From Parcubacteria group bacterium (GTDB lineage: Bacteria > Patescibacteriota > Minisyncoccia > Moranbacterales > UBA2206), in assembly GCA_041664225.1 (NCBI GenBank), contig JBAYLE010000003.1, positions 15,608 through 79,607 on the forward strand: 64,000 nucleotides of DNA. Reading direction: 5' to 3'. The notes beneath the pieces are model-generated. The model was not told the origin of the DNA, ran no database searches, and was given only the letters and a program-made list of their open reading frames with translations. Of the stretch, positions 11,429 to 56,986 are shown piece after piece (position 1 is the first letter of the stretch; each line of letters starts with the position of its first letter). A program made the translations under genes and the position numbers.

Positions 11429-12136
11429 TTATTTTTCTGTACAACAACTTATGTTTTCCGCGTGGAAATAAAGTGAATCATTTGAGTCCTGCTTTCCAAC
11501 TGCCCGTAAAAATTTTCCAACCGCATAATCCGGAACATATGGAAAAACTTTGTCATCGCCTAAGCCAACTTTCACTAATCTTCCATTTTCTTCTTGAATT
11601 ACAACCTCATTATTGGTCACACTCATAATTTCCCCCATCACCGCCATTTCTTCAGGCATGACCCGGTTAGTATAGAGTCCATTTATCAACTGTTCTCCCC
11701 CCATAACCGCGAAAAAGGAGCCCAAAAAGACAATTGCTACCAAAAGAGCCGTGGCCGGAATATTAAAAGAATGTCTAATTCCCAAAGAAAAATTAAGCTT
11801 GTGTACGACATAGCTCCCCAGTATTAAAGTGATCAGAAAAAGTGCCAAGTAATCATAAGGAAAGGAAAGCAAAAAAACCTTGAGACCTGGAACGCCCAGC
11901 TTCAGAAAATTAAGGGCACCCGTTTTTTTGAAAACATACAAAATAACTGACACTGCCAGCGCCCCGCCCAATATAGCCAGCATCAAAATGCTTTCCAACC
12001 CTGCTTTTTCAGCCACAAAAAAAAGCGGGCTTCTCATTTTTATGCGCTTTTTTTTGATCTGATTCATCACCCTGTTCCTCATATCCACTCCGCTCTGCGC
12101 GCTCTGGATCAAATTTTTGTCAAAGCCTCCTTCCAT
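11429..12136 (-). CDS. Membrane protein co-transcribed with the ECF sigma factor (possible anti-sigma factor)
   Basis: Start overlaps the sigma-gene stop (ATGA coupling); 3-4 predicted TM helices; no recognisable zinc-finger anti-sigma motif. Confidence 0.4.
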   Translation of the reverse strand: MEGGFDKNLIQSAQSGVDMRNRVMNQIKKKRIKMRSPLFFVAEKAGLESILMLAILGGALAVSVILYVFKKTGALNFLKLGVPGLKVFLLSFPYDYLALFLITLILGSYVVHKLNFSLGIRHSFNIPATALLVAIVFLGSFFAVMGGEQLINGLYTNRVMPEEMAVMGEIMSVTNNEVVIQEENGRLVKVGLGDDKVFPYVPDYAVGKFLRAVGKQDSNDSLYFHAENISCCTEK

Positions 12137-42212: not shown

Positions 42213-44174
42213 TCATCCCGCCTGCAATTTCCGCAATTCTCCGATTTCATCTCTTATTATGGCGGCTTTTTCAAACTCCAGCGCCCGAGAGGCTTCCTTC
42301 ATCTCGCGCTCGCGCTGTTTGATGTAGCCTTGCAAATCTTCCAGAGATTCCAATTCGGTGAAATCGCGCGTAACTTCAGGCTTCAATTCATGATCCACAA
42401 TGGACTGGATTTTCTTTTTGATGGTGGTCGGGGTGATACGATGCTTTTTATTATGGGCCACTTGAATTTTGCGCCGGCGGTCGGTTTCACCAATCGCCCG
42501 TTTCATGGAGCCGGTAATCTGGTCAGCGTATAAAATAACTCTGCCGGAAACATTCCTGGCCGCTCGGCCGATGGTTTGAATAAGCGAAGTTTCACTCCGC
42601 AAAAATCCTTCCTTGTCCGCGTCCAGAATTGCTACCAAAGACACTTCCGGCAGATCCAATCCTTCGCGCAAAAGATTCACGCCCACCAAAACATCAAATT
42701 TGCCGCGCCGTAAATTTTCCAAAATTCGCACACGATCCAATGTTTCCACTCCGCTGTGGAGATATTCAGCTTTCACTTTTGATTCTTTTAAAAAGTCCGA
42801 GAGGTCTTCTGCCATTTTTTTGGTCAGCGTCGTCACTAAAACTCTTTCTTTTTTGGCTACTATTTTTTTAATTTCGGAAATAACATCCTTCACTTGCCCT
42901 TTGGCGGGCTTGATGGTTAGTTCCGGATCAATAAGCCCGGTCGGACGAATAATTTGCTCGGCAATTTGAGTAGAATTTTTTCTTTCGTAATCTGCCGGCG
43001 TGGCTGAAGTAAAAATCAGCTGATTAATTTTTTTCTCAAATTCACTAAATTTAAGCGGTCGATTATCAAAAGCGCTCGGCAGGCGAAAACCGTTGTCCAC
43101 CAAAGATTTTTTCCGCGAATAATCGCCGTTATACATCCCGTTTAATTGGGGTATAGTTACGTGCGATTCATCAACGACCATTAAAAAATCTTCTGGAAAA
43201 TAATCTATCAGAGTATATGGCGCCTCGCCGGGCTGTCTTCCAGTGAGAAAGCGTGAATAATTTTCGATCCCGTTGCAATAACCGATTTCGCGCATCATTT
43301 CGATGTCCTGTTTGGTGCGCCGCTCCAGCCTTTCGGCTTCCAGCAACTTATTATGATCCCGTAAATATTTCACTCTGTTTTTGGCTTCGGTTTCTATTTT
43401 TTCAAGCGCCCTTTCCATCAGCGGCTCCGGCACCACAAAATGCTTAGCCGGATAAATTAAGATTTTGTCTAGTCTTCCCAATTCATCACCAGTTAGAAAA
43501 TCGTATTCACTAATTTTAGTAATCTTATCCTGCTCAAGACTGATCCTAGTTACAATTTCCCGCGCCGGTGACATAATCTCAATCGTCGGACCCGTCACCC
43601 GGAATTTTCCGCGGCTCAAAAGATCGGTGCGCCCATAATGCATCTCCACTAATTTATTGATCAATTCGCTTCTATCAACTTTTTCTCCCTTTTTTATTTC
43701 CAAAGAAATATCGCGGTAAAATTCCGGCGAGCCCAAGCCATAGATACAGGAAACGGAAGCGACGATAATGACATCCTGACGACTCATGAGCGCAACCGTA
43801 GCCGCGTGGCGAAGACGGTCGATCTCATCATTGATCTGCGCTTCTTTTTCAATATAGGTGTCCGACGAAGCAATGTAGGCTTCCGGCTGATAGTAATCAT
43901 AATAGGAAACAAAATATTCCACCGCGTTCTTGGGAAAAAAGGTGCGAAATTCCTGCGCTAACTGCGCCGCCAAAGTTTTATTAGGCGCGATTACCAGCGT
44001 CGGCTTCTGAACTTTTTCAATCACATTAGCAATCGTAAAAGTTTTGCCAGATCCCGTCACGCCCAAAAGCGTCTGGAATTTTTGTCCAGCCTTGAGGCCC
44101 TGAACCAGCTTCTCAATCGCCTGCGGTTGATCGCCGTCCGGTTTGTATTTTGAATTGATCTTAAATTTCTGCAT
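42213..44174 (-). CDS. uvrB: Excinuclease ABC subunit B
   Basis: Helicase motif I GVTGSGKT, beta-hairpin region, DESH box, C-terminal UVR domain. Confidence 0.9.
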
Positions 44175-44235
44175 ATTTATATAATACTACAATCTTTTAT
44201 TCATTTGTCCATAAAAACTATGCTATAATTACTCC

Positions 44236-44352
44236 ATGAAAACCAAAAAAACCAAAGCCGAAAAACGCGAAGTCAAGAAGAAGCCCAAAATGCCGGTTTC
44301 CGGTAAAAAAGTTTTCGCGCTGAAGGAAATTATTGTGAAAAAGGCTAACTAA
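44236..44352 (+). CDS. Lysine-rich 38-aa small ORF upstream of secG
   Basis: MKTKKTKAEKREVKKKPKMPVSGKKVFALKEIIVKKAN, preceded by a tatgctataat -10-like element; too short for the ORF track. Confidence 0.25.
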   Translation: MKTKKTKAEKREVKKKPKMPVSGKKVFALKEIIVKKAN

Positions 44353-44428
44353 AGCCCAGGATTGACTATTAGTATTGACGAGTAAATTGCCCAGTGATAA
44401 GCTGATATAAGTTTTAATAAACACCAAA

Positions 44429-44659
44429 ATGCTACGAATTATAAATATTGCCGAAATAATCGTTTCCATAACGTTGGTCGTTTCCATCCTGCTCCAAAAT
44501 CGGGGCGCCGGACTTTCTTCAACTTTTGGAGGAGACTTTGGCGGTTACTACAGCAAAAGAGGTTTTGAAAAATTTTTGACGCGCTTTTCTATTTTCTTAG
44601 CGATAATCTTTATCGCGCTGGCAATCACCAATCTGTTTCTGACCAATAAGCCAGTATAA
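44429..44659 (+). CDS. secG: Preprotein translocase subunit SecG
   Basis: Two TM helices with the LLQ..G.G....FGG loop pattern. Confidence 0.75.
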   Translation: MLRIINIAEIIVSITLVVSILLQNRGAGLSSTFGGDFGGYYSKRGFEKFLTRFSIFLAIIFIALAITNLFLTNKPV

Positions 44660-44713
44660 CCAACTAGCTCTAAACCTATACGTAACTATCCTAACAATCC
44701 GCAGAATTTTTCC

Positions 44714-46387
44714 TTGAAAAAATGGCTTCAGGCCACAAAATTTTTTAATATCAAAGAAAGGATATTTTTTAATCTTCTTATCATCTTGCTCTTGGGCTCA
44801 GTTATTGGCTGGGGCTTGATGTTTTATTATTCCAAAACCAAAGCAGTCGCCGATTATGGCGGAGAATATATTGAGGGCATTGTCGGCCAGCCACAACATA
44901 TCAACCCGGTGATTTCCCAATCAAACAACGCGGACGAAGATTTGACGCAACTTGTCTATAGCGGTTTGCTCAAATACGACAGCAGGGGCGATTTAATCCC
45001 TGACTTAGCTGAAAGCTATGACATCTCGGATGACAAAACCACCTACACCTTTCACCTGAAAAAGGACGTTGAGTGGCACGACGGGCAGCCTTTTGCGGCA
45101 GCCGACGTGCTGTATACCACGAACATACTTTCGGATCCTGCCTATAAAAGTCCGCTCAGAACCAACTGGCAAGGCATTACCACAAACATTGTTGATGACC
45201 ACACATTGACTTTTCAGATCCAATCCTCTTTTGTCGGCTTTCTAAACAACCTAACTTTCGGCATCCTGCCAAAACACATCTGGGAAACGGTCACTGCCGA
45301 TAAATTTTCTCTGACTGACCTCAATTTGGAACCGATCGGAACCGGCCCCTACAAATACAATGCCTTCCAAAAAGATTCCAGAGGCAATATTATTTCTTAT
45401 AAACTAGTGGCCAATCCAAATTATTTCGAGGGCAAGCCGTATATTTCAAAAATGACTTTCGATTTTTATGATTCGGATGATTCCATCCTGAAGGCTTTTA
45501 ATTCAAAAGAGATTATGGGTATTAATAGTCTCACCCCGCAGCGTATGGCCGATATCAAGCTATTGCAAAGCACTTTTATACACAAGTTTGACATTTCGCG
45601 ATATTTCGCCGTTTTTATCAATCAAACAAGAAGTTTGCCCTTAGCCGACGATAATGTGCGCCAAGCTTTGACTTATGCCACCAATCGCCAAGAAATAATC
45701 GACAACATCCTCAGTGGAAACGGTAATCCTGTTTATTCGCCAATCCTGGATGCCATGGTCGGTTATTCGACCGACATTGATTCGCGGACTTTTGATCTCG
45801 AAAAGGCCAATTCCGTCTTGGACAGCAATGGCTGGAACCGTGGTGAAGATGGAATGCGAGCTAAGAATGGTACGCCGTTGCAATTTACTTTGACCACGAC
45901 TGATTGGCCTGAACTGGCTCAGACTGCTGAAATCCTCAAATCGGAGTGGGCAAAAGCCGGTGCTAAAGTCGACGTCCAAACTTATTCAATATCTGATATC
46001 CAACAAAATTACATTCGTCCCCGGGAATACGAGGCGCTTCTATTCGGACAAGTTTTGGGCGCGGACCCGGATCCATATTCATTCTGGCACTCTTCACAAA
46101 AAAGAGATCCTGGTCTCAATCTTTCTCTCTTCGGCGATTCCGATACCGACAAGTTGATCGAGGCCGGCCGTATCGAGTTTGATTACGACAAACGAGCATC
46201 CATATACCAGGATTTTCAGAAAAAATTAATAGCAGAAACTCCGGCTATCTTTCTCTACAGCCCGGATTATATTTATCCAGTCAACAAAAAAGTACAAGGC
46301 ATTAATATGGAAGACCTGATATCTCCCTCCAAGCGGTTTTCCGACGCAAATCATTGGTACATCAACACCAAGAGAGTTAAAAAATAA
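44714..46387 (+). CDS. ABC transporter substrate-binding protein, family 5 (Opp/Dpp-like). Uses a TTG start.
   Basis: N-terminal anchor, SBP_bac_5 architecture (~550 aa) with conserved W/Y-rich blocks. Confidence 0.7.
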   Translation: MKKWLQATKFFNIKERIFFNLLIILLLGSVIGWGLMFYYSKTKAVADYGGEYIEGIVGQPQHINPVISQSNNADEDLTQLVYSGLLKYDSRGDLIPDLAESYDISDDKTTYTFHLKKDVEWHDGQPFAAADVLYTTNILSDPAYKSPLRTNWQGITTNIVDDHTLTFQIQSSFVGFLNNLTFGILPKHIWETVTADKFSLTDLNLEPIGTGPYKYNAFQKDSRGNIISYKLVANPNYFEGKPYISKMTFDFYDSDDSILKAFNSKEIMGINSLTPQRMADIKLLQSTFIHKFDISRYFAVFINQTRSLPLADDNVRQALTYATNRQEIIDNILSGNGNPVYSPILDAMVGYSTDIDSRTFDLEKANSVLDSNGWNRGEDGMRAKNGTPLQFTLTTTDWPELAQTAEILKSEWAKAGAKVDVQTYSISDIQQNYIRPREYEALLFGQVLGADPDPYSFWHSSQKRDPGLNLSLFGDSDTDKLIEAGRIEFDYDKRASIYQDFQKKLIAETPAIFLYSPDYIYPVNKKVQGINMEDLISPSKRFSDANHWYINTKRVKK

Positions 46388-46405
46388 AAAAAATATATAA
46401 ACACT

Positions 46406-47014
46406 ATGGATATAAATTTTACGAATGTTCCCAAACATTACGCGTCACGGACTCATGAAAAAATGAAGGAAGTTCTTATGGATCCGGAAGGTGTCGGACC
46501 GGCTATCCATTATTACATGATCCGAGGTGGCAAAGAACAAAAAAATATAACCGTTTGGGAGCCAGGCACCGTATCCGGAGAATATATCAAAACCTATGGG
46601 CATTATCACGTTGGTAACCTGAGTGAAACTTACCAAATTATTTACGGCCAAGGTGTGGCCCTTTTGCAAAAATTGGCTGAAGATGAAAATGGAAATATGA
46701 TCCCTGATGTCGTGGAAGAATTTAAGGCCATTCCGGTCAAAACCGGCGATGAAATTTTTATGCCGGCTAAATTCGGTCATCTTTTAGTTAACACAGGCAT
46801 TACTTATTTTGCGACCACTGACGACAGCCCTGTGGACTTTGAGGACCGTGACCCTTCCAGTTTTCCCGGGCATGCTGATTATGAACCGGTGAAAAAAATG
46901 AAAGGGTTTGCCTATTATGTCGTGGAGAAAGATGGCCAGCCCGCTCTCAAAAAAAATCCGCTTTACAAAACTATCCAGAAAGAAGATCTGGGCGGTTTGC
47001 TGGTAATCGATTAA
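46406..47014 (+). CDS. Cupin-type (archaeal-type) glucose-6-phosphate isomerase-like protein
   Basis: TYGHYH..., ETYQIIYGQGVALLQ and IPVKTGDEIFMPAKFGHLLVNTG correspond to the TxGHFH / E...G.G / PPxWAHR blocks of cupin PGIs. Confidence 0.6.
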   Translation: MDINFTNVPKHYASRTHEKMKEVLMDPEGVGPAIHYYMIRGGKEQKNITVWEPGTVSGEYIKTYGHYHVGNLSETYQIIYGQGVALLQKLAEDENGNMIPDVVEEFKAIPVKTGDEIFMPAKFGHLLVNTGITYFATTDDSPVDFEDRDPSSFPGHADYEPVKKMKGFAYYVVEKDGQPALKKNPLYKTIQKEDLGGLLVID

Positions 47015-47024
47015 CATTAAATTT

Positions 47025-47876
47025 ATGAAGAGCAAGAAAAAAAAGAAAAAAATTGTAGTGGCCGTTAGCGGCGGTTTTGATCCGATCCATGCCGGACATG
47101 TAAGAATGTTTAAAGAAGCTAAGGCTTTGGGTGATGAACTGGTAGTAATATTGAATAACGACAACTGGTTCAGCATAAAAGGACGGACGCTTTTCATGCC
47201 TGGAAAAGAACGAAAAGAAATAATTGAAGCGCTCAAGCCGGTGGATCGTGTTATTTTAAGTAAACACAAGCCTTCCAAGAAAAAATACGACAGAACTACG
47301 ATCGAATATAGCGTATGCCGCGAGCTAGAAGAATTAAAACCGGATATTTTTGCTAATGGGGGCGACCGCTTTAAAGATGATGTTCCAGAAGTTGCTACTT
47401 GTAAAAAAATTGGCTGTAAAACAGTTTTCAATATTGGCAAAGGAGGGAAGGTGCAATCTAGCTCTTGGCTTCTGGAAAAATATCTGAAAAAGGCAAGTGA
47501 TAAATCTGAAAATCGGCCTTGGGGAAAGTTTGAAGTATATGTAGACGACACAAATCACAAGGTAAAAAAACTCACTGTTTCCCCGGGCGCTAAATTAAGC
47601 TTGCAATCTCACAAAAAGCGCGCGGAACACTGGGTGGTTGTCAAGGGAACTGCCAAAGTAGTCAACGGTGAAAATATGCTGACAATCCATGAAAACGAAA
47701 GTACCTACATTCCTGCCGGCACCAAGCATCAACTTACAAACCCGGGAAAGGCATCCTTGGAGGTAATCGAGGTTCAAACCGGAAGTTATTTTGGCGAGGA
47801 TGATATAATCCGTTACCATGATGAGTATGGACGTATGAGTGGCATGTCTTCTACAGAAAAAGTTGACAAAAAATAG
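47025..47876 (+). CDS. Fusion of a cytidylyltransferase-like nucleotidyltransferase domain and a cupin (mannose-6-phosphate-isomerase type II C-terminal-like) domain
   Basis: N-terminal VSGGFDPIHAGHVRMF (HxGH NTase motif); C-terminal cupin RPWGKFEVY...QSHKKRAEHWVVVKGTAKV...IPAGTKHQLTN. Confidence 0.6.
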   Translation: MKSKKKKKKIVVAVSGGFDPIHAGHVRMFKEAKALGDELVVILNNDNWFSIKGRTLFMPGKERKEIIEALKPVDRVILSKHKPSKKKYDRTTIEYSVCRELEELKPDIFANGGDRFKDDVPEVATCKKIGCKTVFNIGKGGKVQSSSWLLEKYLKKASDKSENRPWGKFEVYVDDTNHKVKKLTVSPGAKLSLQSHKKRAEHWVVVKGTAKVVNGENMLTIHENESTYIPAGTKHQLTNPGKASLEVIEVQTGSYFGEDDIIRYHDEYGRMSGMSSTEKVDKK

Positions 47877-48076
47877 TTTTGGGTGTATAATTAAAGGTAA
47901 TAAAGTCACTTCTTAATATTTTCCTTTATTTAAGGCTTTCTTCTTCTCAATATCTCTAAGAAATTTTCTTTTCTATTGTTTTTCATCTTTTTTATTATTT
48001 TATCGTCTTTTAATTTACTTTAATCAGCCTGCTATCTTTCGCGATATACATTCGCGTTAATTAGCGAACCTAATTT

Positions 48077-49900
48077 ATGTTTAAAAAAACTACGGCTTCT
48101 TCGCCTTTGGTTCGTCCAAGCGAAGCCGCCAAACCACAACCAAGCGCGCCTATGGGACATAGGATCAGCAGCTATCCTAAGGCGTCCCCCCTAAGAAACA
48201 GTTCTCCGTCTACTAATAGGCAGGCGTCTTTTGGCGGCAATTTACGCGTCATCCCTTTGGGGGGCCTCGAAGAAGTCGGCCGCAATATGACTATCTTTGA
48301 ATATGGACAAGACATTATCATTGTCGACATGGGTCTCCAATTCCCGGATGAAGACATGCCAGGGATCGACTATATCATTCCTGACATCAGCTATCTCAAA
48401 GGCAAAGAAAAAAATATCCGCGGCGTTTTGATCACGCACGGACATTATGATCACATCGGCGCTATCCCTCATCTGATGGAGGCTTTGGGCAATCCGCCGA
48501 TTTATATGACTGAACTGACCCGCGGCATTGTTATGAAAAGACAGGATGACTATAAAGACAAGTCTCCACTTAATATCCATACCGTTAAAAAAATTGATCG
48601 CATGCGATTGGGGAGTTTCAACATCGAATTTTTCCATGTTAACCATACCATCCCCGATGCGGTCGGCATCGCCATCACCACGCCAGTTGGAACAATCATT
48701 CATACCGGCGATTTCAAATTTGATCATTCTCCAATTTCAGATGCGCCAGCCGACATCGCCAAGATTGCCCGCCTCGGCAGTGAGAATGTTCTGGCCTTGA
48801 TGTCAGACTCAACCGACTCACAGACCCCCGGCTATTCTTTGTCTGAATCAAAAATCGCCAAAACCCTGGATGATATTTTTGAACAAACTCAGGGACGTTT
48901 GATTTTTGCAACTTTTTCATCGCTCATTAGCCGTATTCAATCAGTCGTGGCCGCCGCTGAAAAACACGGCCGTAAAGTAGCCGTCGATGGCTATTCCATG
49001 CGGACTAACGTGGAAATTGCCAGAAACTTAGGTTACCTTCAGACGAAAAAAAGCACTTTCATTCCGATCAACAAGGTTAATGATTATCCGGATAATAAAG
49101 TAGCGATTCTTTGCACTGGTTCACAGGGCGAAGCCAATGCCGTGCTCATGCGCATCGTGAACGGCGAGCACCGCTTTGTAAAAGTTCATAAAGATGACAC
49201 CTTCGTTCTTTCTTCCTCGGTTATCCCCGGCAATGAAAGAACAGTACAGTCCATCATGGATACAATTTACAGAAAAGATGCCAAGGTTATTAATTACAAA
49301 ATGATGGACGTGCATGCCGGAGGGCACGCGCGCCAAGAAGACCTAAAGATGATGATCAATCTGATCCGACCGAAATATCTGATTCCGATCCATGGCAATT
49401 ATTATATGTTGAAACTGCATGGACAACTGGGGGTATCCGTCGGTATGGATCCAAAAAATATTCTGATCGGCGAAAACGGAAAGGTTATCGAATTTGATTA
49501 CCGCCAAAACGGCAAAATTACCGACGAAAAAGTTCCGACCAGTCATATCATGGTGGACGGGCTTGGCGTCGGCGACATCGGGCAAGTGGTGCTCCGCGAC
49601 CGCCAGCTTTTGGCGCAAGACGGCATGTTTGTCATTACTGTTATTATTGATAGCGATACCAAGAAAATTCTCGGTAAACCACAAGTCACTTCCCGCGGGT
49701 TCATCTTTGTCAAAGAAAATTTTGATTTGGTAAACGCCACCAAGAAAAAAGTGGAAGAGATCATCGCCCAAAAAGTTACGACCGAAACGGCCGTCAACTG
49801 GGATTATGTTAAAAACAACATCCGCGAAGCCGTCGGGTCATTCCTCTATCAAAAAACACAAAGACGGCCGATGGTGCTCCCGGTGGTGATAGAGGTGTAA
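48077..49900 (+). CDS. rnj: Ribonuclease J (metallo-beta-lactamase / beta-CASP) with an S/P-rich N-terminal extension
   Basis: LRVIPLGGLEEVGRN, HGHYDHIG, beta-CASP and C-terminal domain; first ~50 aa are low complexity. Confidence 0.85.
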   Translation: MFKKTTASSPLVRPSEAAKPQPSAPMGHRISSYPKASPLRNSSPSTNRQASFGGNLRVIPLGGLEEVGRNMTIFEYGQDIIIVDMGLQFPDEDMPGIDYIIPDISYLKGKEKNIRGVLITHGHYDHIGAIPHLMEALGNPPIYMTELTRGIVMKRQDDYKDKSPLNIHTVKKIDRMRLGSFNIEFFHVNHTIPDAVGIAITTPVGTIIHTGDFKFDHSPISDAPADIAKIARLGSENVLALMSDSTDSQTPGYSLSESKIAKTLDDIFEQTQGRLIFATFSSLISRIQSVVAAAEKHGRKVAVDGYSMRTNVEIARNLGYLQTKKSTFIPINKVNDYPDNKVAILCTGSQGEANAVLMRIVNGEHRFVKVHKDDTFVLSSSVIPGNERTVQSIMDTIYRKDAKVINYKMMDVHAGGHARQEDLKMMINLIRPKYLIPIHGNYYMLKLHGQLGVSVGMDPKNILIGENGKVIEFDYRQNGKITDEKVPTSHIMVDGLGVGDIGQVVLRDRQLLAQDGMFVITVIIDSDTKKILGKPQVTSRGFIFVKENFDLVNATKKKVEEIIAQKVTTETAVNWDYVKNNIREAVGSFLYQKTQRRPMVLPVVIEV

Positions 49901-49950
49901 TTATATTACTTTGTCATTCCGGACTTGATCCGGAATCTAATAAAATTAAA

Positions 49951-49988
49951 GGCGGACTGTGAGATTTACTCAAGCAGTCCGCTTTTTG
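49951..49988 (+). terminator. Rho-independent terminator after rnj
   Basis: ggcggactgtgagatttactcaagcagtccgc followed by ttttt. Confidence 0.7.
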
Positions 49989-50013
49989 TTTCTATCGGCC
50001 TAAGTGTGTCTTT

Positions 50014-51153
50014 TTATTTTTTCTTTTTGAACGCTTCGGCGATCTTCCGAAAAGTTTCTTCGGAAATTTTTTTTCCAAGTTGCTTATGAGCTTCGATAAC
50101 GGGGCCGATGTCACCATCGCATTTCGAGACCGAGGTTTCCAAAAGTTCATTGGCTTCGTCTTCGCGCAGCGGTCGGGAAATTACGGCGAGCAGATCAGAA
50201 ACATTATATGTTTCCTTTTGCTGTAGATAGACTTTAATCATTTTTTCAGAGTCTTTTTTCCCGAGTTTTTTCTTCAATTCTTCACAAAGATATTTTACGT
50301 TATGCATAGAACCTTCCCCAACACTAATCTTCCGGATTTTATAGAGATATCTCCTTGAAGCTCTAAGTGCAATCGCAACTCTTGACAGTCCATACAGAAT
50401 ACTTGAATCAACTATTGAGATGTATCCCCGCATCAACTGGTTGGCAACTTTTTGAGGAATCGGAATTATCTTATTAAAGTCAACCGGGTTTTGGGGGCTG
50501 TCTTTTTTAAGGCATGCCCCAAACAGAATGTCAACAAGTTTTTTATTTGATAACTTTACACCAGTTAATTGAAGGGCTGTTTGCAAACAATGTACATCGG
50601 CACGACCATCAATATATAGCTGGGCACAGTACCTCGCAACTTCTCTCTTCATCTTTTTTGTTGATTTTTTCACCAGCAATTCCATCTCGTCATCAAAAAA
50701 ATATCTCGGATGACGCGCAGATGCTTTTAGGCATAAAATCGGATCGACAATTAAAGGCGAGGGATTAAAATCTAAATACCATTCGAGATAATTGGTTTCT
50801 TTCCCTACAACATAAATACTTTTTCCGATTCTATTTATAAATCTTTTGGATATGTTTTGACCCATCTTTTTCATAGCCTTGAGCAGCTCCATGGCGGAAA
50901 AGATATACTTCCCAACCAGTATTTGTCCGCGAAGTTCGCGCCATTCTTTTTTTGTGGGAACAACCTTGGTCAGCTCTACAATATAAAAAAAGGTATCAAC
51001 CGAAGCTTTCCGCAAAGCCACTTTTTTGGCCATTCTTATTTCGCTTGTTGTGAGTCCCCTTCCTTCCGTTTCGGCTACTTCCAGGGCCTTTCTTATTTCG
51101 CCCTGACCTAAATATAAGTCGACTAATTCCTTGGCTGCCGTCTTTTTTTTCAC
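50014..51153 (-). CDS. Hypothetical protein, 379 aa, no recognisable domain
   Basis: Long ORF, lysine-rich termini, predicted mostly helical. Confidence 0.4.
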   Translation of the reverse strand: MKKKTAAKELVDLYLGQGEIRKALEVAETEGRGLTTSEIRMAKKVALRKASVDTFFYIVELTKVVPTKKEWRELRGQILVGKYIFSAMELLKAMKKMGQNISKRFINRIGKSIYVVGKETNYLEWYLDFNPSPLIVDPILCLKASARHPRYFFDDEMELLVKKSTKKMKREVARYCAQLYIDGRADVHCLQTALQLTGVKLSNKKLVDILFGACLKKDSPQNPVDFNKIIPIPQKVANQLMRGYISIVDSSILYGLSRVAIALRASRRYLYKIRKISVGEGSMHNVKYLCEELKKKLGKKDSEKMIKVYLQQKETYNVSDLLAVISRPLREDEANELLETSVSKCDGDIGPVIEAHKQLGKKISEETFRKIAEAFKKKK

Positions 51154-51351
51154 CTTGTTCCTCCTTGTTTATAGATTTTAAAGAACTTCTTGCCTATTTT
51201 TTGATTTTTGTTTTAACAAGGAATTATATTATAAAGTAGAATACTAGTCAATGATTAGGTCGTTTTTATTAAGATTAATTTATTATTTGACTTATTTTAG
51301 GCACTATACTATACTTATTTTGTTGACCCTTTTGTCGACAATTATAAAAAT

Positions 51352-52083
51352 ATGCTCGAAAGAGACCTGGAAAAATTGGGGCTAGACGACAAAGAAGCTA
51401 AAATATATTTAGCGCTTTTAGAGTTAGGGGAAGCTAATATCCAACAAATTGCCAAAAAATCAGGAGTCAAAAGAACGACTGTTTATGACATTATTGAGTC
51501 CTTGAAAGAAAAGGGGCTTTTGAGTTCAGCGACACGGCACAAAAAAATTACCTATTCCGCCGAAGATCCGAGAACGCTGGAGGAAAAATTAGACGAAAGA
51601 AAAAATACCCTAAAAAGGATTATGCCAGAACTGCTTTCCATCGCCAATGCGATGGATAAAAAACCAAAAATAAGATTCTTTGAAGGATCAGAGGGGATAA
51701 AAGAGGTTTATAAAGATACGTTAAAATACCCCTCTAGCGAACTTTTGGCTTGGGTTTCCGATGAAGCAGTAACTGTTTTTGATAAGGATTTTTTGGAGGG
51801 ATATTACTTACCAAAAAGAATTGAAAAAAAGATATGGGTCAGAGCGATTGGCACAGAGAGCACGGAGATGAAAAACTATAAAAATTTAGATGAGAAGTCT
51901 TTACGCAAAACTAAGATCATCTCTGCCAATCAATTTCCCATCCATGTTGAAATCAATCTTTATGGAAAAAATAAAATCGCCGTCATGTCTTTTTCCGAAA
52001 AAATCGGCCTCATCGTCGAAAGTCAAAAGATTTTCACCACCCTCAAAAGCATATTCGAAATGAACTGGAATTCAATTGCCTAA
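51352..52083 (+). CDS. TrmB-family transcriptional regulator
   Basis: N-terminal wHTH LGLDDKEAKIYLALLELGEANIQQIAKKSGVKRTTVYDIIESLKEKGLL. Confidence 0.7.
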   Translation: MLERDLEKLGLDDKEAKIYLALLELGEANIQQIAKKSGVKRTTVYDIIESLKEKGLLSSATRHKKITYSAEDPRTLEEKLDERKNTLKRIMPELLSIANAMDKKPKIRFFEGSEGIKEVYKDTLKYPSSELLAWVSDEAVTVFDKDFLEGYYLPKRIEKKIWVRAIGTESTEMKNYKNLDEKSLRKTKIISANQFPIHVEINLYGKNKIAVMSFSEKIGLIVESQKIFTTLKSIFEMNWNSIA

Positions 52084-52134
52084 ATTTTAAAAATATAAAA
52101 TAATAGATCCTTCAGCCTACAAAATTTCCACAAA

Positions 52135-52284
52135 ATTCAAGCGAGCGAGCGTTAAGAAAGTTCCTTGATTCCGCCTCGGAAGCAGCCGGAACTTTTAGCT
52201 CGCAAGTGCATAATTTTGTCGGAAATTTTGTCTGGCTGAGAGTTCTTTTTGTTACTTTTTCTTGCGGAAAGAAAAAGTAAGGGG
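52135..52284 (+). repeat. Copy C of the structured repeat family (lacks the 5' arm), immediately upstream of trpS
   Basis: attcaagcgagcgagcgttaagaaa, ttccgcctcggaagcagcc loop flanked by agttcc/ggaact, cttgcggaaagaaaaagtaagg 3' end. Confidence 0.65.
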
Positions 52285-52325
52285 CTGTAATTGCCTAAAA
52301 CACTCCTTTACGCTAGAATAAATTT

Positions 52326-53306
52326 ATGAACAAGAGAATCTTTTCCGGCGTGCAGCCGAGCGGAAACCTGCATATTGGCAACTATTTGGGAGCCATCAAA
52401 AACTGGGTCAAACTCCAAGAGGAATATGATTCGATTTTTTGCGTGGTAGACCTGCATGCCATCACCGTTCCGCAAAATCCAGAGGAACTGCGAAAAAAGA
52501 CCCTTGAAGTTGCTAAAGTTTATCTGGCCGCCGGCATTGATCCGGAAAAATGTTCGATTTTCATCCAATCGCATGTTCCGGAGCACGCGGAGCTGGCTTG
52601 GATTTTGAATACGATTACCAAGGTTGCGGAACTGGAAAGAATGACTCAATTCAAAGACAAAACTCAAAAGAATATCGAAGGCACAGCTGTCGGACTTTTT
52701 GATTATCCTGTTCTCATGGCTTCCGACATCTTGCTTTACGACACCGACCTGGTACCAGTAGGCAAAGACCAGGTCCAGCATATTGAACTGACCAGGACTT
52801 TAGCCAACAGATTCAACAAAAAATTCGGCGAGACTTTCATAATTCCCAAGCCATACACCACAGAAGTGAGCCAGAGTATTATGGGGCTCGACGACCCTTC
52901 TAAAAAAATGTCGAAATCAGCGAGCTCTGAATACAATTACATTTCCCTTACCGACAACGCTGAAACCGTCCGCCGGAAAATAAAAAAGGCGGTGACTGAC
53001 AGTGGAACGGAAATAGTTTACCGAGATGATAAGCCGGCTTTGAAAAATTTGATCAATATTTATTCCCTCCTTTCCGAAAAATCCACCAAAGATATTGAAA
53101 AGCTGTACACAGGCAAGGGCTATGCAGATTTTAAGCAAGATTTGGCAGAGGTTATTATTGCCTTTTTAAAGCCTTTCCAAGAAAGGTTGGGGGATCTGTC
53201 TGATGAAAAAGTTCTGGAAATCTTGAAAGCTGGCGCGGAAAAAGTCCGCCCGTTAGCAAAGAAGAAGCTAGAGGAAGTGAAAAAAAAGGTGGGTTTTATA
53301 TTGTAA
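52326..53306 (+). CDS. trpS: Tryptophan--tRNA ligase
   Basis: HIGH-type motif PSGNLHIGNY and KMSKS. Confidence 0.9.
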   Translation: MNKRIFSGVQPSGNLHIGNYLGAIKNWVKLQEEYDSIFCVVDLHAITVPQNPEELRKKTLEVAKVYLAAGIDPEKCSIFIQSHVPEHAELAWILNTITKVAELERMTQFKDKTQKNIEGTAVGLFDYPVLMASDILLYDTDLVPVGKDQVQHIELTRTLANRFNKKFGETFIIPKPYTTEVSQSIMGLDDPSKKMSKSASSEYNYISLTDNAETVRRKIKKAVTDSGTEIVYRDDKPALKNLINIYSLLSEKSTKDIEKLYTGKGYADFKQDLAEVIIAFLKPFQERLGDLSDEKVLEILKAGAEKVRPLAKKKLEEVKKKVGFIL

Positions 53307-53529: not shown

Positions 53530-55062
53530 ATGCTAAAAGAAAAATTTAAAAAACTTAATTCCAAGTTTGAGCCCTATTATCTTTGGCTCATTTTAATTTT
53601 AGCTGCCGTCCTGCGCTTGCGCAATCTGGCCTATCGAGATTTTTGGTATGACGAAGCCTTCACTGGCGTCGCCGTCAAGGAAAAATTTAGCGATATGATC
53701 CAAATGATCATTAATGACGTCCACCCGCCACTCTATTACGCGTCTTTAAAATTGTTCGCTTCTTTTTTCGATTATAGCGTTTATGGTATCCGCTTATTTT
53801 CAGCTATTTTCGGCATTCTAGCTGTCTGGGCAGCCTATCTCTTCGCCAAAGAACTATGTGGCAAGCGAGCTGGGCTCTTCGCCGGATTTATAACCGCCAT
53901 CGCGCCTTTTGCTATTCAGTATTCCCAAGAAGCACGCATGTACACCATGCTTTCATTCTTTCTTTTGATTTCTGCCTATTTTTTTCTAAGAGCGCTTAAA
54001 AATAACTCGACCAAAAACTATGTCTTTTGGGGAATTTTTCTGGGCCTAGCTTGCCTTACCCATTATATGGGCGTAGTTTTTTCCGCGACTTTCTATTTAG
54101 CCTATTTGGTTTGGAATATTTTTGAAGAAGAAGAAACGAACAAAAAGTTTGATTTGAGGTCCCTGAAAAAATTTATACCTAACAAGAGCGTACTCATTGG
54201 ATATTTTTTTGCTTTTTTAGTATTTTCATTTTGGGTAAAAAGATTTTATTATCACATGATGGACTTGGGTGACAATTTACATTGGGTGCGTCCGGCCAAT
54301 CTGGGCGATGTTTTCTGGAGCGTGCAGATGTTTCTTTTCGGAACACCAGTCGGGGAAATGTCTTCCGGTATGCCAAACCCTAACACTTTTTATATAATTT
54401 CTCAGACCTCAGTTTTGAGCGGGCTGACAATTTTGTTTACCGCGATTATAATCTTTTTATTTTTCAGAGATCGTAAAAAAACCGCCACATTGCTTGTCTT
54501 TTCTTTCGGCTTCATCGGCATCGTCTATATAATGTCCTTATTTAACGAGCAATATTTTGTCGCCCGCTATCTGATGCCAGCCGCGTATTTTATTTATATT
54601 TTGTTAGGCGTTTGGCTTTCTCAAGTTCACTGGCGCTATGTGGCTTCAGCGCTGGCTCTTTATGGAATCTTACTGGCCTTTGTCACTCATCTCGGTTTTT
54701 CCACTGGCTGGAATATTTTGCAAAAAAATACCGCTAAATACAAAGATAGTGATTTTTATATCACGACCTCTTTTGACTATGTGATTGCTAAATATTATTT
54801 GGGCGCGGATAGACTGACTTTGTATAATCTTGATTGGCCAGCATATAACCCCAGTTATTGGGCAGCTATCGGCCCCAGCCTCAAACGCGCCGAAAGTTTT
54901 AATACGATTTTGAATGATCCCAACGCTTTGATAATTTCCAATATGCCGCTCAACAAAAAAACCAGCACCGATCCAACTTTCGATGCCAAAAAGTTTAAGC
55001 TGGTTGATTATTACAATAATATTTTTGTTTACAAAATAGACCCGGGATCTTCCAACCCTTGA
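53530..55062 (+). CDS. Glycosyltransferase family 39 / ArnT-PMT-like polyprenyl-phosphate-sugar-dependent transferase
   Basis: First-loop DE motif RDFWYDEAF, HPPLYY, ~10 TM helices. Confidence 0.7.
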   Translation: MLKEKFKKLNSKFEPYYLWLILILAAVLRLRNLAYRDFWYDEAFTGVAVKEKFSDMIQMIINDVHPPLYYASLKLFASFFDYSVYGIRLFSAIFGILAVWAAYLFAKELCGKRAGLFAGFITAIAPFAIQYSQEARMYTMLSFFLLISAYFFLRALKNNSTKNYVFWGIFLGLACLTHYMGVVFSATFYLAYLVWNIFEEEETNKKFDLRSLKKFIPNKSVLIGYFFAFLVFSFWVKRFYYHMMDLGDNLHWVRPANLGDVFWSVQMFLFGTPVGEMSSGMPNPNTFYIISQTSVLSGLTILFTAIIIFLFFRDRKKTATLLVFSFGFIGIVYIMSLFNEQYFVARYLMPAAYFIYILLGVWLSQVHWRYVASALALYGILLAFVTHLGFSTGWNILQKNTAKYKDSDFYITTSFDYVIAKYYLGADRLTLYNLDWPAYNPSYWAAIGPSLKRAESFNTILNDPNALIISNMPLNKKTSTDPTFDAKKFKLVDYYNNIFVYKIDPGSSNP

Positions 55063-55564: not shown

Positions 55565-56986
55565 TTAATCTAAACTTTCAACATTTACCCCAAAGCTCCA
55601 ATCAACATCTGAATGGGCATGCAGTAATTGGCTGAGATATTTTTTGAGTTCATCATATTTTTCTTGTGTTTGCGCTTCGAATTTTATAGTCAGATAGGGA
55701 CCATTTTGGGAATAGCGCACTACAAACATTGAGTCAGGTAGGTCAAGACGCACACCATCACCAGCTCTCTCGTCATCAATTATTTCGGCCTGCGGATAGT
55801 CTTTTTTTAGAATCTCACTAATTTTTGCGATAAAATGAGCTTTTTTATCATCCGCACATCCAATTTTTATCTCCGGGCTGGAAATATATTTCGGAAGATA
55901 ATCAACAACTTCTGACAGCGATTTGCCTGATTTGGCCAAATAGCTTAATAAACGAAATGTCGAATAAACTCCATCATCATGATTATAGAAGTCCGCTGAA
56001 AAAAAGAAGTGACCTGAAAGCTCACCAATAAAGGCGGCTTTCACTTCCTGGTTTTTCTTTTTCAAAAAGGAATGCCCGGTTCGCCACATAAACGGTACAC
56101 CGCCGCTTTTTTTAATCGTGTCTTCGACCACTTTTGAGCAAAGCGTGTTATACATTATTTTTTCTCCAGGATGATCGGCCAAAACATCAGCCGCGAATAT
56201 GGCCACTAATACATCATTCCAGATTATTCCCCCTTTGTCATCGACAATACCGACTCGATCTCCGTCTGCATCGTAAGAAAAACCGACGTCCGCCCTCTCT
56301 TCCAGAACTTTTGCTCGCAATCTTTCTGCCACGAATACTTCTGTCGGATCAGGCGTACCCAAAGGAAAAGCGGGGTCAATTTTGCAATTGCTTTCCACAA
56401 CCTCGCAACCAGCCTGACGCAAAAATTCCGGCACAATGGCTCCAGCTGTCGAATTTCCCGGGTCAACAACTACCTTAAATTTTTTGCCCAGCGGAATGCG
56501 CTTAGATATGTCGTTAAAATAATCTTGTGAAATATTTTTCTTTTCAATAATTCCTTCTTTTTCACCCTGTTCATAATCTTCATTTTCTACCATTTTGCGT
56601 AATTCCTGAATTCCATCACTCACCATAGTTTCCGAAAAATCATTGGCAAATTTGAACCCATTATATTCCGCCGGATTATGTGAAGCAGTGACATACGCTC
56701 CCCCCTTTGCATTTAAAAAATATTGCGCCCAATAAAAAGTTCCGACTAAAGTCATGCCGATATCAACAACATCGATTCCTGCCCAAGATAAGCCTCTGAT
56801 TAAAAATTGACTGTATTCCTCGCTAGTTGACCGACAATCCCTGCCAACAATGGCCCTGGAAATGCCATGCCGCTTCAAATAAGTTCCGTGTGCTTTCCCT
56901 AAATGTTCAACTATTTCGGGATTTAAATCTTTATCGACTACACCCCTAAGATCATAGCCCCGAAACATATTTGGATTTACTTGCAT
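55565..56986 (-). CDS. Phosphomannomutase/phosphoglucomutase (alpha-D-phosphohexomutase)
   Basis: Active-site TASHNP, metal-binding DADGDR, sugar-binding GELSGH. Confidence 0.85.
   Translation of the reverse strand: MQVNPNMFRGYDLRGVVDKDLNPEIVEHLGKAHGTYLKRHGISRAIVGRDCRSTSEEYSQFLIRGLSWAGIDVVDIGMTLVGTFYWAQYFLNAKGGAYVTASHNPAEYNGFKFANDFSETMVSDGIQELRKMVENEDYEQGEKEGIIEKKNISQDYFNDISKRIPLGKKFKVVVDPGNSTAGAIVPEFLRQAGCEVVESNCKIDPAFPLGTPDPTEVFVAERLRAKVLEERADVGFSYDADGDRVGIVDDKGGIIWNDVLVAIFAADVLADHPGEKIMYNTLCSKVVEDTIKKSGGVPFMWRTGHSFLKKKNQEVKAAFIGELSGHFFFSADFYNHDDGVYSTFRLLSYLAKSGKSLSEVVDYLPKYISSPEIKIGCADDKKAHFIAKISEILKKDYPQAEIIDDERAGDGVRLDLPDSMFVVRYSQNGPYLTIKFEAQTQEKYDELKKYLSQLLHAHSDVDWSFGVNVESLD

What the first reader, a model, noticed from the sequence alone, without database searches (positions are those of the whole stretch)
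46406..47876. Cupin-type phosphoglucose isomerase next to a cytidylyltransferase-cupin fusion: non-canonical hexose-phosphate module
Gene 1 has the cupin PGI blocks (TYGHYH, YGQG..LLQ, PAKFGHLLVN) typical of archaeal cPGI. Gene 2 fuses an HxGH nucleotidyltransferase domain of the RfaE domain II / glycerol-3-phosphate cytidylyltransferase type to a type II mannose-6-phosphate isomerase cupin. A phosphomannomutase (55565-56986), a GT39 mannosyltransferase and a further polytopic membrane protein lie downstream. Together these could form a compact fructose-6-P -> mannose-6-P -> mannose-1-P -> NDP-mannose -> polyprenyl-P-mannose -> surface mannosylation route built from unusual parts.
Basis: inference. 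Interest (0 to 1): 0.5.

Follow-up and report, generated by a model that had tools for sequence, protein, structure and literature searches.

The report
Mannose-activation enzyme with a swapped nucleotidyltransferase domain
Two adjacent genes in a tiny-genome (Patescibacteria) bacterium encode an archaeal-style sugar-phosphate isomerase and a fusion protein that looks like the standard two-in-one mannose-activating enzyme, except that its nucleotide-attaching half has been replaced by an unrelated enzyme type, which probably does the same job in a new way.

Summary
Gene 1 (46406-47014) is a cupin-type phosphoglucose isomerase with all four metal ligands. Gene 2 (47025-47876) fuses an HxGH cytidylyltransferase-like nucleotidyltransferase (NTase) to a type II phosphomannose isomerase (PMI) cupin.

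Cupin PGI in the Candidate Phyla Radiation (CPR) is already published (Jaffe 2020). I found no paper on the fusion.

Evidence that the HxGH NTase probably activates mannose-1-phosphate:
- **Same slot, different NTase.** In sister Moranbacteria-like contigs with the same gene order (solute-binding protein, cPGI, X, RNase J, TrpRS, PMM), X is either the canonical ManC::PMI enzyme or this NTase::PMI fusion. The PMI domains are 62-72% identical. No fetched locus carried both NTase types.
- **Recurrent fusions.** The NTase family is fused to PMI cupins and to HAD-type phosphomannomutase, in both domain orders. One protein carries all three domains.
- **Mannose-phosphate neighbours.** It lies next to bifunctional PGI/PMI in some loci. 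In others it lies in clusters with GH130 mannoside phosphorylases, which yield mannose-1-P.
- **Fold.** The closest solved structure is HldC, a manno-heptose-1-P adenylyltransferase.

Substrate and nucleotide are inferred, not shown. Rivals are a heptose-1-P NTase, a TagD-like enzyme and a RibL-like FAD synthetase.

The proposed link to the downstream GT-C mannosyltransferases is not conserved in the relatives examined.

Verdict: a new variant of a known kind, of moderate interest.

The parts
46406..47014 (+). Gene 1: cupin-type phosphoglucose isomerase (cPGI), 202 aa. Candidate metal ligands are His66, His68, Glu74 and His125. His156 corresponds to PfPGI His158.
   Evidence: PF06560 at 66.5 bits. 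The alignment to the cupin PGI chains 1j3p and 4lul places these residues on PfPGI His88, His90, Glu97, His136 and His158, whose roles are given in PMC6627849. The 120 best database relatives are 79-89% identical and nearly all 202 aa long.
47025..47876 (+). Gene 2: bifunctional fusion protein, 283 aa, with an HxGH nucleotidyltransferase followed by a type II PMI cupin.
   Evidence: Pfam and NCBIfam. AlphaFold2 model with an alignment: pLDDT 88.2, two domains joined by a helix at aa 146-158. The same architecture occurs in many independent clusters.
47025..47498 (+). N-terminal domain (aa 1-158): HIGH-motif, cytidylyltransferase-like nucleotidyltransferase. Motifs are GGFDPIHAGH and GGKVQSSS. 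Predicted to be a mannose-1-phosphate nucleotidylyltransferase.
47505..47822 (+). C-terminal domain (aa 161-266): type II phosphomannose isomerase cupin. Motifs are RPWG, SLQSHKKRAEHW, KHQLTN and EVQTGSYFGEDDIIRY.
44714..46387 (+). Upstream co-directional gene: a family-5 solute-binding protein, ending 18 nt before gene 1. It is a conserved neighbour and possibly part of the same transcript. Its ligand is unknown.
   Evidence: PF00496 at 254.8 bits. The SBP-then-isomerase order is conserved in L001, L003, L009, L093, L116, L159 and others.
55565..56986 (-). PGM/PMM-superfamily hexose-phosphate mutase. It is the candidate for the mannose-6-P to mannose-1-P step. It is loosely linked and not in the same operon.
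   Evidence: All four PGM_PMM domains are present. NCBIfam PgmG scores 366 bits and Arch_GlmM 319 bits, both below their cut-offs. A mutase recurs within about 10 kb of cPGI in many relatives.
47863..47891 (+). Perfect sigma-70 consensus (TTGACA, 17 nt, TATAAT) overlapping the end of gene 2. It probably drives RNase J and marks the 3' boundary of the SBP-cPGI-fusion unit.
   Evidence: 12 of 12 matches in the promoter scan; sequence read. This is a consensus match only, and function is not shown.

Best explanation
The two genes form a hexose-phosphate interconversion and activation unit of a Moranbacteria-like Patescibacterium.

Proposed steps:
1. Gene 1 is a metal-dependent cupin phosphoglucose isomerase (glucose-6-P <-> fructose-6-P).
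2. The C-terminal cupin of gene 2 is a type II phosphomannose isomerase (fructose-6-P <-> mannose-6-P).
3. A separately encoded mutase makes mannose-1-P. The PGM/PMM gene at 55565-56986 is the candidate.
4. The N-terminal HxGH domain of gene 2 condenses mannose-1-P with an NTP to give NDP-mannose for glycan synthesis.

Gene 2 is thus the functional analogue of the classical bifunctional ManC/AlgA-type enzyme (mannose-1-P guanylyltransferase plus PMI). The difference is that the GT-A-fold NTP_transferase domain has been displaced by a non-homologous Rossmann-fold HIGH-motif nucleotidyltransferase related to HldC, TagD and RibL.

Status of each step:
- Shown: domain identities, conserved catalytic motifs, the synteny patterns and the fusion patterns.
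- Inferred: that mannose-1-P is the NTase substrate, which nucleotide is used, and that the nearby mutase supplies mannose-1-P.
For: 1. **In-situ replacement.**
   - In the conserved frame SBP-cPGI-X-RNaseJ-TrpRS-PMM, X is ManC::PMI (about 460 aa) in L097, L116 and L159.
   - X is HxGH-NTase::PMI in the window, L093, L001 and L009.
2. **Same PMI domain.** The window's PMI domain is 62-72% identical to the PMI domains of those ManC::PMI proteins. That is as close as it is to other NTase-fused copies such as L009 (70%).
3. **Complementary distribution.**
   - No fetched locus carries both ManC and the HxGH NTase.
   - The six loci in the SBP...RNase J frame that also have at least 6 kb on both sides each carry exactly one of the two: five ManC, one NTase.
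   - The in-frame loci listed show the same pattern.
   - The window has no ManC-like gene.
4. **Alternative isomerase.** In L003, L004, L011 and L171 a stand-alone copy of the NTase (86-91% identical) lies next to a TIGR02128 bifunctional PGI/PMI (236.9 bits, cut-off 213.9). The gene order occurs both ways round.
5. **Rosetta-stone fusions across the family.**
   - Among the best 150 representatives at 50% identity, 20 are NTase->PMI, 2 are PMI->NTase and about 7 are fused to a HAD-IIB domain whose best Pfam match is PMM. Both orders occur.
   - At least 63 clusters at 90% identity are NTase::HAD-PMM.
   - P0316 carries HAD-PMM, NTase and PMI in one chain.
   - The HAD domain is itself fused to GH130 (P0339, P0342, P0353, P0355) and to a PMI cupin (P0329).
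6. **GH130 operons.** In L018, L034 and L044 the PMI cupin and NTase genes lie directly beside two GH130 genes (PF04041, 139-355 bits). In L018 and L034 the NTase is fused to HAD-PMM. That GH130 phosphorylases release alpha-mannose-1-P is established knowledge; see PMC4264767.
8. **Glycan context.** 31 of 65 stand-alone family members analysed have a glycan-assembly gene within four genes. These are an SDR epimerase/dehydratase, Bac_transf, Wzx, GT2, GT4 or Wzy.
Against: - No biochemical data exist for any member of this NTase family. All functional evidence is contextual.
- The known substrates of HIGH-motif NTases are mostly non-anomeric phosphates or beta-heptose-1-P. The mutases and GH130 make alpha-mannose-1-P.
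- Only 7 of 80 species-representative loci have a mannose-phosphate gene within 10 kb.
- 15 of those 80 loci also carry a short NTP_transferase, whose best though sub-threshold NCBIfam match is a mannose-1-P guanylyltransferase. In L173 and L174 a close NTase copy lies beside such a gene and NusA. The two NTase types can therefore coexist and may do different jobs.
- The ManC versus NTase exclusivity is not statistically significant in the raw 80-locus sample: 0 loci with both observed, about 1.6 expected. It could not be tested genome-wide.
- The family is unusually conserved for a surface-glycan enzyme (55-89% identity across CPR phyla).
- Some cPGI+NTase loci (L012, L134, L138) show no PMI within reach.
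Confidence: 0.55

Rival explanations
1. The NTase domain is a cytidylyltransferase for a non-sugar phosphate: TagD-like glycerol-3-P, or another alditol or amino-alcohol phosphate. Its product goes into the same mannose-containing surface polymer. It would be fused to PMI or PMM only because the two products are needed together.
For: - NCBIfam g3p_cytidyltrns scores 49.5 bits.
- Stand-alone members lie in glycan clusters and are often near a second, NTP_transferase-type enzyme. This resembles the pairing of TarI and TagD in teichoic-acid loci (my own knowledge).
Against: - The g3p_cytidyltrns score is far below its cut-off of 165.4.
- The RTEGISTT motif is replaced by GGKVQSSS.
- This reading does not explain why the domain occupies exactly the ManC position in the ManC::PMI architecture.
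- It does not explain the repeated fusions to PMM and PMI in both orders, or the GH130 operons.
Confidence: 0.13
2. The NTase domain is a heptose-1-phosphate nucleotidyltransferase of the HldC / RfaE domain II type. Under this reading the associated isomerases act on sedoheptulose-7-P, as GmhA does.
For: - The best NCBIfam hit is rfaE_dom_II (67.6 bits) and the best fold match is HldC.
- Several sources annotate homologues as heptose-1-P adenylyltransferase.
- Isomerase/kinase/NTase fusions exist in heptose pathways, and NDP-heptose enzymes are widespread (PMC11573728).
Against: - The rfaE_dom_II score is far below its cut-off of 181.5.
- The (F/L)XXGRSTT / GxSTT motif is absent.
- No PfkB-type heptose kinase, GmhA or GmhB family appeared among the ten recurrent neighbour families that were annotated.
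- The cupin is orthologous to the PMI domain of ManC::PMI.
- GH130 and PMM-type HAD partners point to mannose, not heptose.
Confidence: 0.1
3. The NTase domain is an archaeal-type FAD synthetase (RibL-like FMN adenylyltransferase). This would supply the FAD-forming enzyme that Parcubacteria genomes appear to lack. Its links to mannose genes would be incidental.
For: - Nelson & Stegen 2015 (PMC4508563) found no ribF, ribK or ribL in Parcubacteria although the FAD-dependent MurB and TrxB are kept.
- The family is widespread (at least 554 species genomes) and highly conserved.
- The best sequence match in the PDB is 3glv, a small archaeal protein of this class (E 1e-11, 35% identity).
- Cys98, Cys126 and Cys131 are conserved. 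RibL has two functionally important cysteines (PMC11423594).
Against: - There is no rationale for an FAD synthetase to be fused repeatedly, in both orders, to PMI and PMM, or to sit in GH130 operons.
- There is no rationale for it to take the ManC slot in front of the same PMI domain.
- 3glv has no assigned function, and it shows no cysteine in the aligned stretch.
- No riboflavin kinase or flavin gene was seen nearby.
Confidence: 0.1
4. The NTase is a broader or different hexose-1-phosphate nucleotidyltransferase, for example for glucose-1-P. It would be linked primarily to the PGI step rather than to mannose.
For: - In Moranbacteria-like loci the NTase always lies next to a PGI-type gene (cPGI or PGI/PMI).
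- Some loci have cPGI plus NTase with no PMI cupin in view (L012, L105, L134, L138).
- The nearby mutase family handles both glucose and mannose phosphates.
Against: All fusion partners and operon partners outside Moranbacteria are mannose-specific families: PF01050 PMI, PF03332 PMM and GH130.
Confidence: 0.08

Closest known systems
Bifunctional mannose-1-phosphate guanylyltransferase / mannose-6-phosphate isomerase (type II PMI; ManC, AlgA, XanB, WbpW; NCBIfam TIGR01479)
   Same: - The two-domain logic is the same: a nucleotidyltransferase at the N-terminus and a PMI cupin at the C-terminus.
- The C-terminal domain is homologous over TIGR01479 positions 355-467.
- That domain is 62-72% identical to genuine ManC::PMI proteins occupying the same chromosomal slot in sister genomes.
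   Different: - The N-terminal domain is not the GT-A-fold NTP_transferase (PF00483) but an unrelated HxGH Rossmann-type NTase (PF01467).
- The whole-protein score of 156.5 bits is far below the cut-off of 372.95.
- The nucleotide used is unknown and need not be GTP.
[quoted passage not shown]
   Same: - To my knowledge it is the only characterised branch of this superfamily that activates a manno-configured sugar-1-phosphate.
   Different: - The score is well below the equivalog cut-off (67.6 against 181.5 bits).
- The C-terminal motif is GGKVQSSS rather than GxSTT / (F/L)XXGRSTT.
- No heptose-pathway partners were seen.
- The predicted substrate is a hexose-1-P, probably the alpha anomer.
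Cupin-type phosphoglucose isomerase of Thermococcales (PfPGI, TlPGI; Pfam PF06560)
   Same: - Gene 1 has the cupin fold family and all four metal ligands, plus the equivalent of His158.
- It is similar in size (202 aa against about 189 aa).
   Different: - It is only remotely similar to the solved archaeal cPGIs (best E 2.7e-6).
- It has a shorter N-terminus and two insertions (aa 89-106 and about aa 131-150).
- It is bacterial (CPR), a distribution already reported by Jaffe et al. 2020.
Bifunctional PGI/PMI of the PGI superfamily (TIGR02128; Aeropyrum, Thermoplasma, Pyrobaculum type)
   Same: It provides the same two isomerase activities. In sister genomes it occupies the same locus next to the same NTase (L003, L011, L171).
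   Different: It has a SIS fold and is a single protein. In the window its two activities are apparently split between two unrelated cupins.
Stand-alone archaeal cupin PMIs (Thermococcus kodakarensis 7zvy, T. barophilus 7zvm)
   Different: About 15% sequence identity, and not fused to any NTase.

Membership tests
Cupin-type PGI (PF06560) | Score above the Pfam gathering threshold over the cupin core | tested here: met
   66.5 bits against a cut-off of 20.7, covering aa 43-182.
Cupin-type PGI (PF06560) | Metal ligands equivalent to PfPGI His88, His90, Glu97 and His136 | tested here: met
   His66, His68, Glu74 and His125 align to them (alignment; ligand list from PMC6627849).
Cupin-type PGI (PF06560) | Glucose-6-P / fructose-6-P isomerase activity | not testable with these tools
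   An enzyme assay is needed.
GMP-PMI bifunctional enzyme (TIGR01479) | C-terminal type II PMI cupin (PF01050) with the conserved RPWG and QxHxxRxEHW...H motifs | tested here: met
   143 bits over profile positions 11-116 of 116. The motifs are read directly from the sequence and the alignment. The motif definition is from my own knowledge.
GMP-PMI bifunctional enzyme (TIGR01479) | N-terminal NTP_transferase (PF00483) guanylyltransferase domain | tested here: not met
   There is no PF00483 hit. The N-terminus is PF01467. TIGR01479 matches only positions 355-467, and the total of 156.5 bits is below the cut-off of 372.95.
RfaE domain II / HldC (TIGR02199) | Equivalog-level score | tested here: not met
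   67.6 bits against a cut-off of 181.5.
RfaE domain II / HldC (TIGR02199) | HxGH motif and HldC-like fold | tested here: met
   [not shown]
RfaE domain II / HldC (TIGR02199) | C-terminal GxSTT / (F/L)XXGRSTT motif (PMC11573728) | tested here: not met
   The sequence has GGKVQSSSWLL, with S145-S147 invariant.
RfaE domain II / HldC (TIGR02199) | Genomic association with GmhA, a heptose kinase and GmhB | tested here: inconclusive
   None appeared among the ten recurrent neighbour families that were annotated in 65 loci. Whole genomes could not be searched.
Glycerol-3-phosphate cytidylyltransferase TagD (TIGR01518) | Equivalog-level score | tested here: not met
   49.5 bits against a cut-off of 165.4.
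Archaeal FAD synthetase RibL | Orthology to MJ1179 and its two conserved cysteines | tested here: inconclusive
   No RibL model or sequence was available in the tools. The domain is 35% identical to 3glv, which has no assigned function. Conserved cysteines are present, but their correspondence to those of RibL was not established.
   All such models score 22 bits or less, against cut-offs of 112-341.

The most novel reading that the evidence does not exclude
The HxGH domain makes a mannose nucleotide other than GDP-mannose. ADP- or CDP-mannose are the candidates, because characterised relatives use ATP or CTP. Many CPR bacteria would then run their mannose glycobiology on a non-canonical donor. 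In lineages with the GH130-PMI-NTase::PMM operon, this might include a mannogen-like beta-mannan synthesis and phosphorolysis cycle.
Probability: 0.25. Interest if true: 0.75.

Novelty: new variant of a known kind. Interest (0 to 1): 0.55.

Why it matters
- **Enzymology.** If the inference holds, a second, non-homologous enzyme class can activate mannose-1-phosphate. It would be a clear case of analogous domain displacement inside an otherwise conserved bifunctional enzyme at a conserved locus.
- **Metabolic reconstruction.** CPR/Patescibacteria genomes that lack ManC would currently be scored as unable to make activated mannose. Their copies of this gene are labelled "adenylyltransferase/cytidyltransferase family protein", "glycerol-3-phosphate cytidylyltransferase" or "heptose adenylyltransferase".
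- **New donor substrate.** The nucleotide specificity is open, so a new sugar-nucleotide donor in a very large bacterial radiation is possible.
- **Applied use.** A compact, roughly 160-aa pyrophosphorylase could be useful for chemoenzymatic synthesis of sugar nucleotides.
- **The RibL alternative.** The rival RibL reading bears on an acknowledged gap: how Parcubacteria obtain FAD.

Tried and rejected
- **Single-sequence AlphaFold2 model of gene 2.** Unusable (pLDDT 36.4). Redone with a 75-sequence alignment.
- **The afdb50 library.** Not installed. Comparison with annotated RibL models was therefore not possible.
- **Hansen et al. 2005, the defining cPGI paper (PMC1063998).** Not held. Its signature patterns are quoted from memory only.
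- **Raw ManC versus NTase co-occurrence in the 80 metagenome loci.** Suggestive but not significant (7 NTase only, 18 ManC only, 0 both, 55 neither). Restricting to loci with 6 kb or more on both sides left only 6 loci in the conserved frame.
- **Asking whether ManC-type genomes also carry the NTase elsewhere.** Contig look-ups and cluster membership could not link contigs to genomes.
- **Thermococcales glycolytic motif** (TATCAC-N5-GTGATA, prompted by the nearby TrmB-like regulator). No match with up to 2 mismatches.
- **Rfam scan of 44000-52500.** No match.
- **Literature searches.** I looked for the fusion, for ADP-mannose synthesis and for cupin PGI in Patescibacteria. Nothing specific turned up beyond Jaffe 2020.
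- **Frameshift artefact.** Rejected, because the architecture recurs widely.
- **NaMN/NMN adenylyltransferase.** Rejected on scores.
Full report
**1. What is there**

The window carries two tightly spaced co-directional ORFs at 46406-47014 (202 aa) and 47025-47876 (283 aa). They follow a family-5 solute-binding protein gene (44714-46387) after an 18-nt gap. A 200-nt gap separates them from RNase J (48077-49900).

A perfect sigma-70 consensus (TTGACA, 17 nt, TATAAT) lies at 47863-47891, overlapping the end of gene 2. RNase J therefore probably has its own promoter, and the SBP-gene 1-gene 2 stretch is the likely transcription unit. This is a consensus match only.

The neighbourhood is housekeeping: UvrB, SecG, RNase J, TrpRS, YchF, S6, SSB and EF-P. 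The closest relatives of both proteins come from Candidatus Moranbacteria and other Patescibacteria metagenome-assembled genomes.

**2. Gene 1**

- It matches Pfam PF06560 (cupin glucose-6-phosphate isomerase) at 66.5 bits.
- Among solved structures it matches only the Thermococcus litoralis and Pyrococcus furiosus cupin PGIs.
- In that alignment His66, His68, Glu74 and His125 fall on PfPGI His88, His90, Glu97 and His136. These are the Mn ligands listed in PMC6627849. His156 falls on His158.
- Compared with the archaeal enzymes it has a shorter N-terminus and two insertions.
- The family has 3027 database hits, and the 120 best listed are 79-89% identical and nearly all 202 aa long.
- Jaffe et al. 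2020 (PMC7304191) already reported that CPR bacteria use three alternative PGI forms: PF00342, the TIGR02128 PGI/PMI and the PF06560 cupin. They found more than one form per genome only rarely. This half of the finding is correct but known.

**3. Gene 2**

- Residues 15-129 match PF01467 (cytidylyltransferase-like), with the HxGH motif as GGFDPIHAGH.
- Residues 161-266 match PF01050 (the C-terminal PMI domain of type II PMIs) at 143 bits.
- NCBIfam TIGR01479 (GMP_PMI) matches only its positions 355-467.
- The N-terminal half is nearest rfaE_dom_II (67.6 bits) and g3p_cytidyltrns (49.5 bits). Both are far below their cut-offs. NaMN/NMN adenylyltransferase models score 22 bits or less.
- An AlphaFold2 model built on a 75-sequence alignment is confident (pLDDT 88.2). 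It shows two domains joined by a helix.

**4. Comparative genomics of the locus**

I fetched related loci in three ways:
- by exact-protein look-up;
- by a scan of species-representative genomes with an NTase alignment;
- by a metagenome scan with gene 1.

I classified their ORFs with phmmer and HMMs.

In Moranbacteria-like contigs the frame SBP-cPGI-X-RNaseJ-TrpRS-PMM(-) is conserved, and X varies:

| Gene(s) at position X | Loci |
|---|---|
| Canonical ManC::PMI, about 460 aa | L097, L116, L159 (also next to cPGI in L092, L096, L108) |
| HxGH-NTase::PMI | window, L001, L002, L009, L010, L093 |
| Stand-alone HxGH NTase | L012, L134, L138 |
| NTase followed by a SIS-type PGI/PMI | L111, L112, L146 |
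| Stand-alone PMI cupin, with a separate ManC beside the mutase | L006-L008, L095, L100, L110, L153 |

- In L003, L004, L011 and L171 the cPGI is replaced by a TIGR02128 bifunctional PGI/PMI (236.9 bits, above its cut-off). It is adjacent to the stand-alone NTase, in either order.
- The PMI domain of the window fusion is 62-72% identical to the PMI domains of the ManC::PMI proteins. That is as close as it is to other NTase-fused copies.
- The NTase domain is 85-94% identical to stand-alone NTases.
- The same PMI domain, at the same chromosomal position, therefore carries one of two unrelated N-terminal nucleotidyltransferases.
- No fetched locus carries both NTase types. The six in-frame loci with at least 6 kb on both sides each carry exactly one of the two.
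- The window has no ManC-like gene.

**5. Evidence from the wider NTase family**

- The family occurs in at least 554 species genomes, all of the Patescibacteria type by record title or by their relatives. Identity to the window domain is 55-89%.
- Among the best 150 representatives at 50% identity:
  - 102 are stand-alone;
  - 20 are NTase->PMI cupin;
  - 2 are PMI cupin->NTase;
  - about 7 are fused, in both orders, to a HAD-IIB domain whose best Pfam match is eukaryotic-type phosphomannomutase PF03332.
- At least 63 clusters at 90% identity have the NTase::HAD-PMM architecture.
- P0316 carries HAD-PMM, NTase and PMI cupin in one chain.
- The HAD domain is itself fused to GH130 (P0339, P0342, P0353, P0355) or to a PMI cupin (P0329).
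- In L018, L034 and L044, which come from three different lineages, the PMI cupin and NTase genes lie directly beside two GH130 genes. In L018 and L034 the NTase is fused to HAD-PMM. L072 also has GH130 genes within 10 kb.
- GH130 enzymes are beta-mannoside phosphorylases that interconvert mannosides and alpha-mannose-1-P. This is established knowledge; see PMC4264767 and PMC4599007 listed.
- Stand-alone NTases often lie among glycan-assembly genes (SDR epimerase/dehydratase, Bac_transf, Wzx, GT2, GT4, Wzy). 31 of 65 loci had at least one such gene within four genes.

**6. Interpretation**

The most economical reading has two parts:
- cPGI plus the PMI cupin together replace a bifunctional PGI/PMI.
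- The HxGH domain replaces ManC's nucleotidyltransferase, making NDP-mannose from mannose-1-P. A PGM/PMM-type or HAD-type mutase supplies the mannose-1-P.

The substrate, the anomer and the nucleotide are inferred. Characterised relatives use ATP or CTP, so the product may not be GDP-mannose.

**7. Caveats and rivals**

- Only 7 of 80 species-representative loci have a mannose-phosphate gene within 10 kb.
- 15 of those 80 loci also hold a short NTP_transferase of unknown specificity. A close NTase copy lies next to such a gene and NusA in L173 and L174.
- The exclusivity with ManC could not be tested genome-wide.
- A TagD-like enzyme and a heptose-1-P NTase remain possible. Neither explains the fusion and operon pattern.
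- A RibL-like FAD synthetase is an intriguing alternative:
  - Parcubacteria were reported to lack recognisable FAD synthetases while keeping MurB and TrxB (PMC4508563).
  - The family is unusually conserved.
  - However, this reading gives no reason for the mannose-gene linkage.

**8.

- The mutase gene (55565-56986, minus strand) is a recurrent but loosely linked neighbour. Its specificity is unresolved.
- The PMT_2 (53530-55062) and PIG-V-like (58169-59275) GT-C genes are real. They are absent from the syntenic relatives L001 and L003.
- No polyprenyl-phosphate-mannose synthase candidate was found in the window.
- The compact end-to-end route is therefore not supported beyond the NDP-mannose step.

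**9. Verdict**

- The cPGI is a known feature of CPR genomes.
- The HxGH-NTase::PMI fusion is widespread in public data but functionally unannotated. I found no paper on it.
- It is best described as a new variant of the GMP-PMI type of enzyme, with an analogous NTase domain.
- Confidence in the mannose-1-P assignment is about 0.55. Interest is moderate (0.55).

Noticed in passing
window 47863-48076: A perfect sigma-70 consensus promoter (12 of 12 matches) overlaps the stop region of gene 2. It is followed by a T-rich leader of about 185 nt before the RNase J start codon. This could be a regulatory 5' UTR for RNase J. There was no Rfam match.
   Followed up: partly
window 50014-52083: Two genes lie between RNase J and TrpRS: a 378-aa ORF on the minus strand with no Pfam match, and a TrmB-family (archaeal-type sugar-specific) regulator at 51352-52083. 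Neither is present at this position in the syntenic relatives L001 and L003. No Thermococcales glycolytic motif occurs in the window.
   Followed up: partly
window 53530-55062 and 58169-59275: Two GT-C-type polytopic glycosyltransferase-like genes (PMT_2/PMT, and weakly PIG-V-like). They interrupt the TrpRS-PMM-YchF frame relative to L001 and L003, so they look like variable surface-glycosylation genes rather than part of a conserved module.
   Followed up: partly
L018 6610-11245; L034 6562-11206; L044 7750-11623; L072: Other CPR lineages carry a cluster of GH130 (372 aa), a double GH130 (about 640 aa), a PMI cupin and the NTase (fused to HAD-PMM in L018 and L034). This could be a beta-mannoside phosphorolysis or salvage system, or a mannogen-like cycle.
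   Followed up: partly
L111, L112, L146 (about 9998-12123): Cupin PGI and the SIS-type bifunctional PGI/PMI are encoded in the same operon-like stretch, with the NTase between them. Jaffe et al. 2020 reported more than one PGI form in only about 2% of CPR genomes.
   Followed up: no
L127, L129, L133, L135, L137, L143, L145, L149, L150, L157, L170 (gene directly upstream of cPGI): A second, divergent class of small cupins lies immediately upstream of cPGI in other lineages, sometimes preceded by a PGM/PMM gene. They are only 25-33% identical to the window PMI domain, with a KPWGYE...LSLQYH motif and a weak TIGR01479 hit of 29 bits. Their activity is unknown.
   Followed up: partly
proteins P0401, P0444, P0422, P0463, P0501: Sporadic fusions of the same NTase to a Shedu SduA_C nuclease domain, an HNH endonuclease, a NUMOD3 motif, a CapR domain, or a GFO/IDH/MocA oxidoreductase. 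The nuclease fusions may reflect homing-endonuclease-like insertions.
   Followed up: no
L173 and L174, 9145-11053: A stand-alone NTase 85% identical to the window domain lies in a different context: a short NTP_transferase (220-233 aa), then the NTase, then a 149-aa unknown, then NusA. The two NTase classes can therefore be neighbours.
   Followed up: partly
window 44714-46387: The family-5 solute-binding protein gene is a constant upstream partner of the isomerase genes across Moranbacteria-like loci. No ABC permease or ATPase genes were noticed beside it in those loci. Its ligand is unknown.
   Followed up: no
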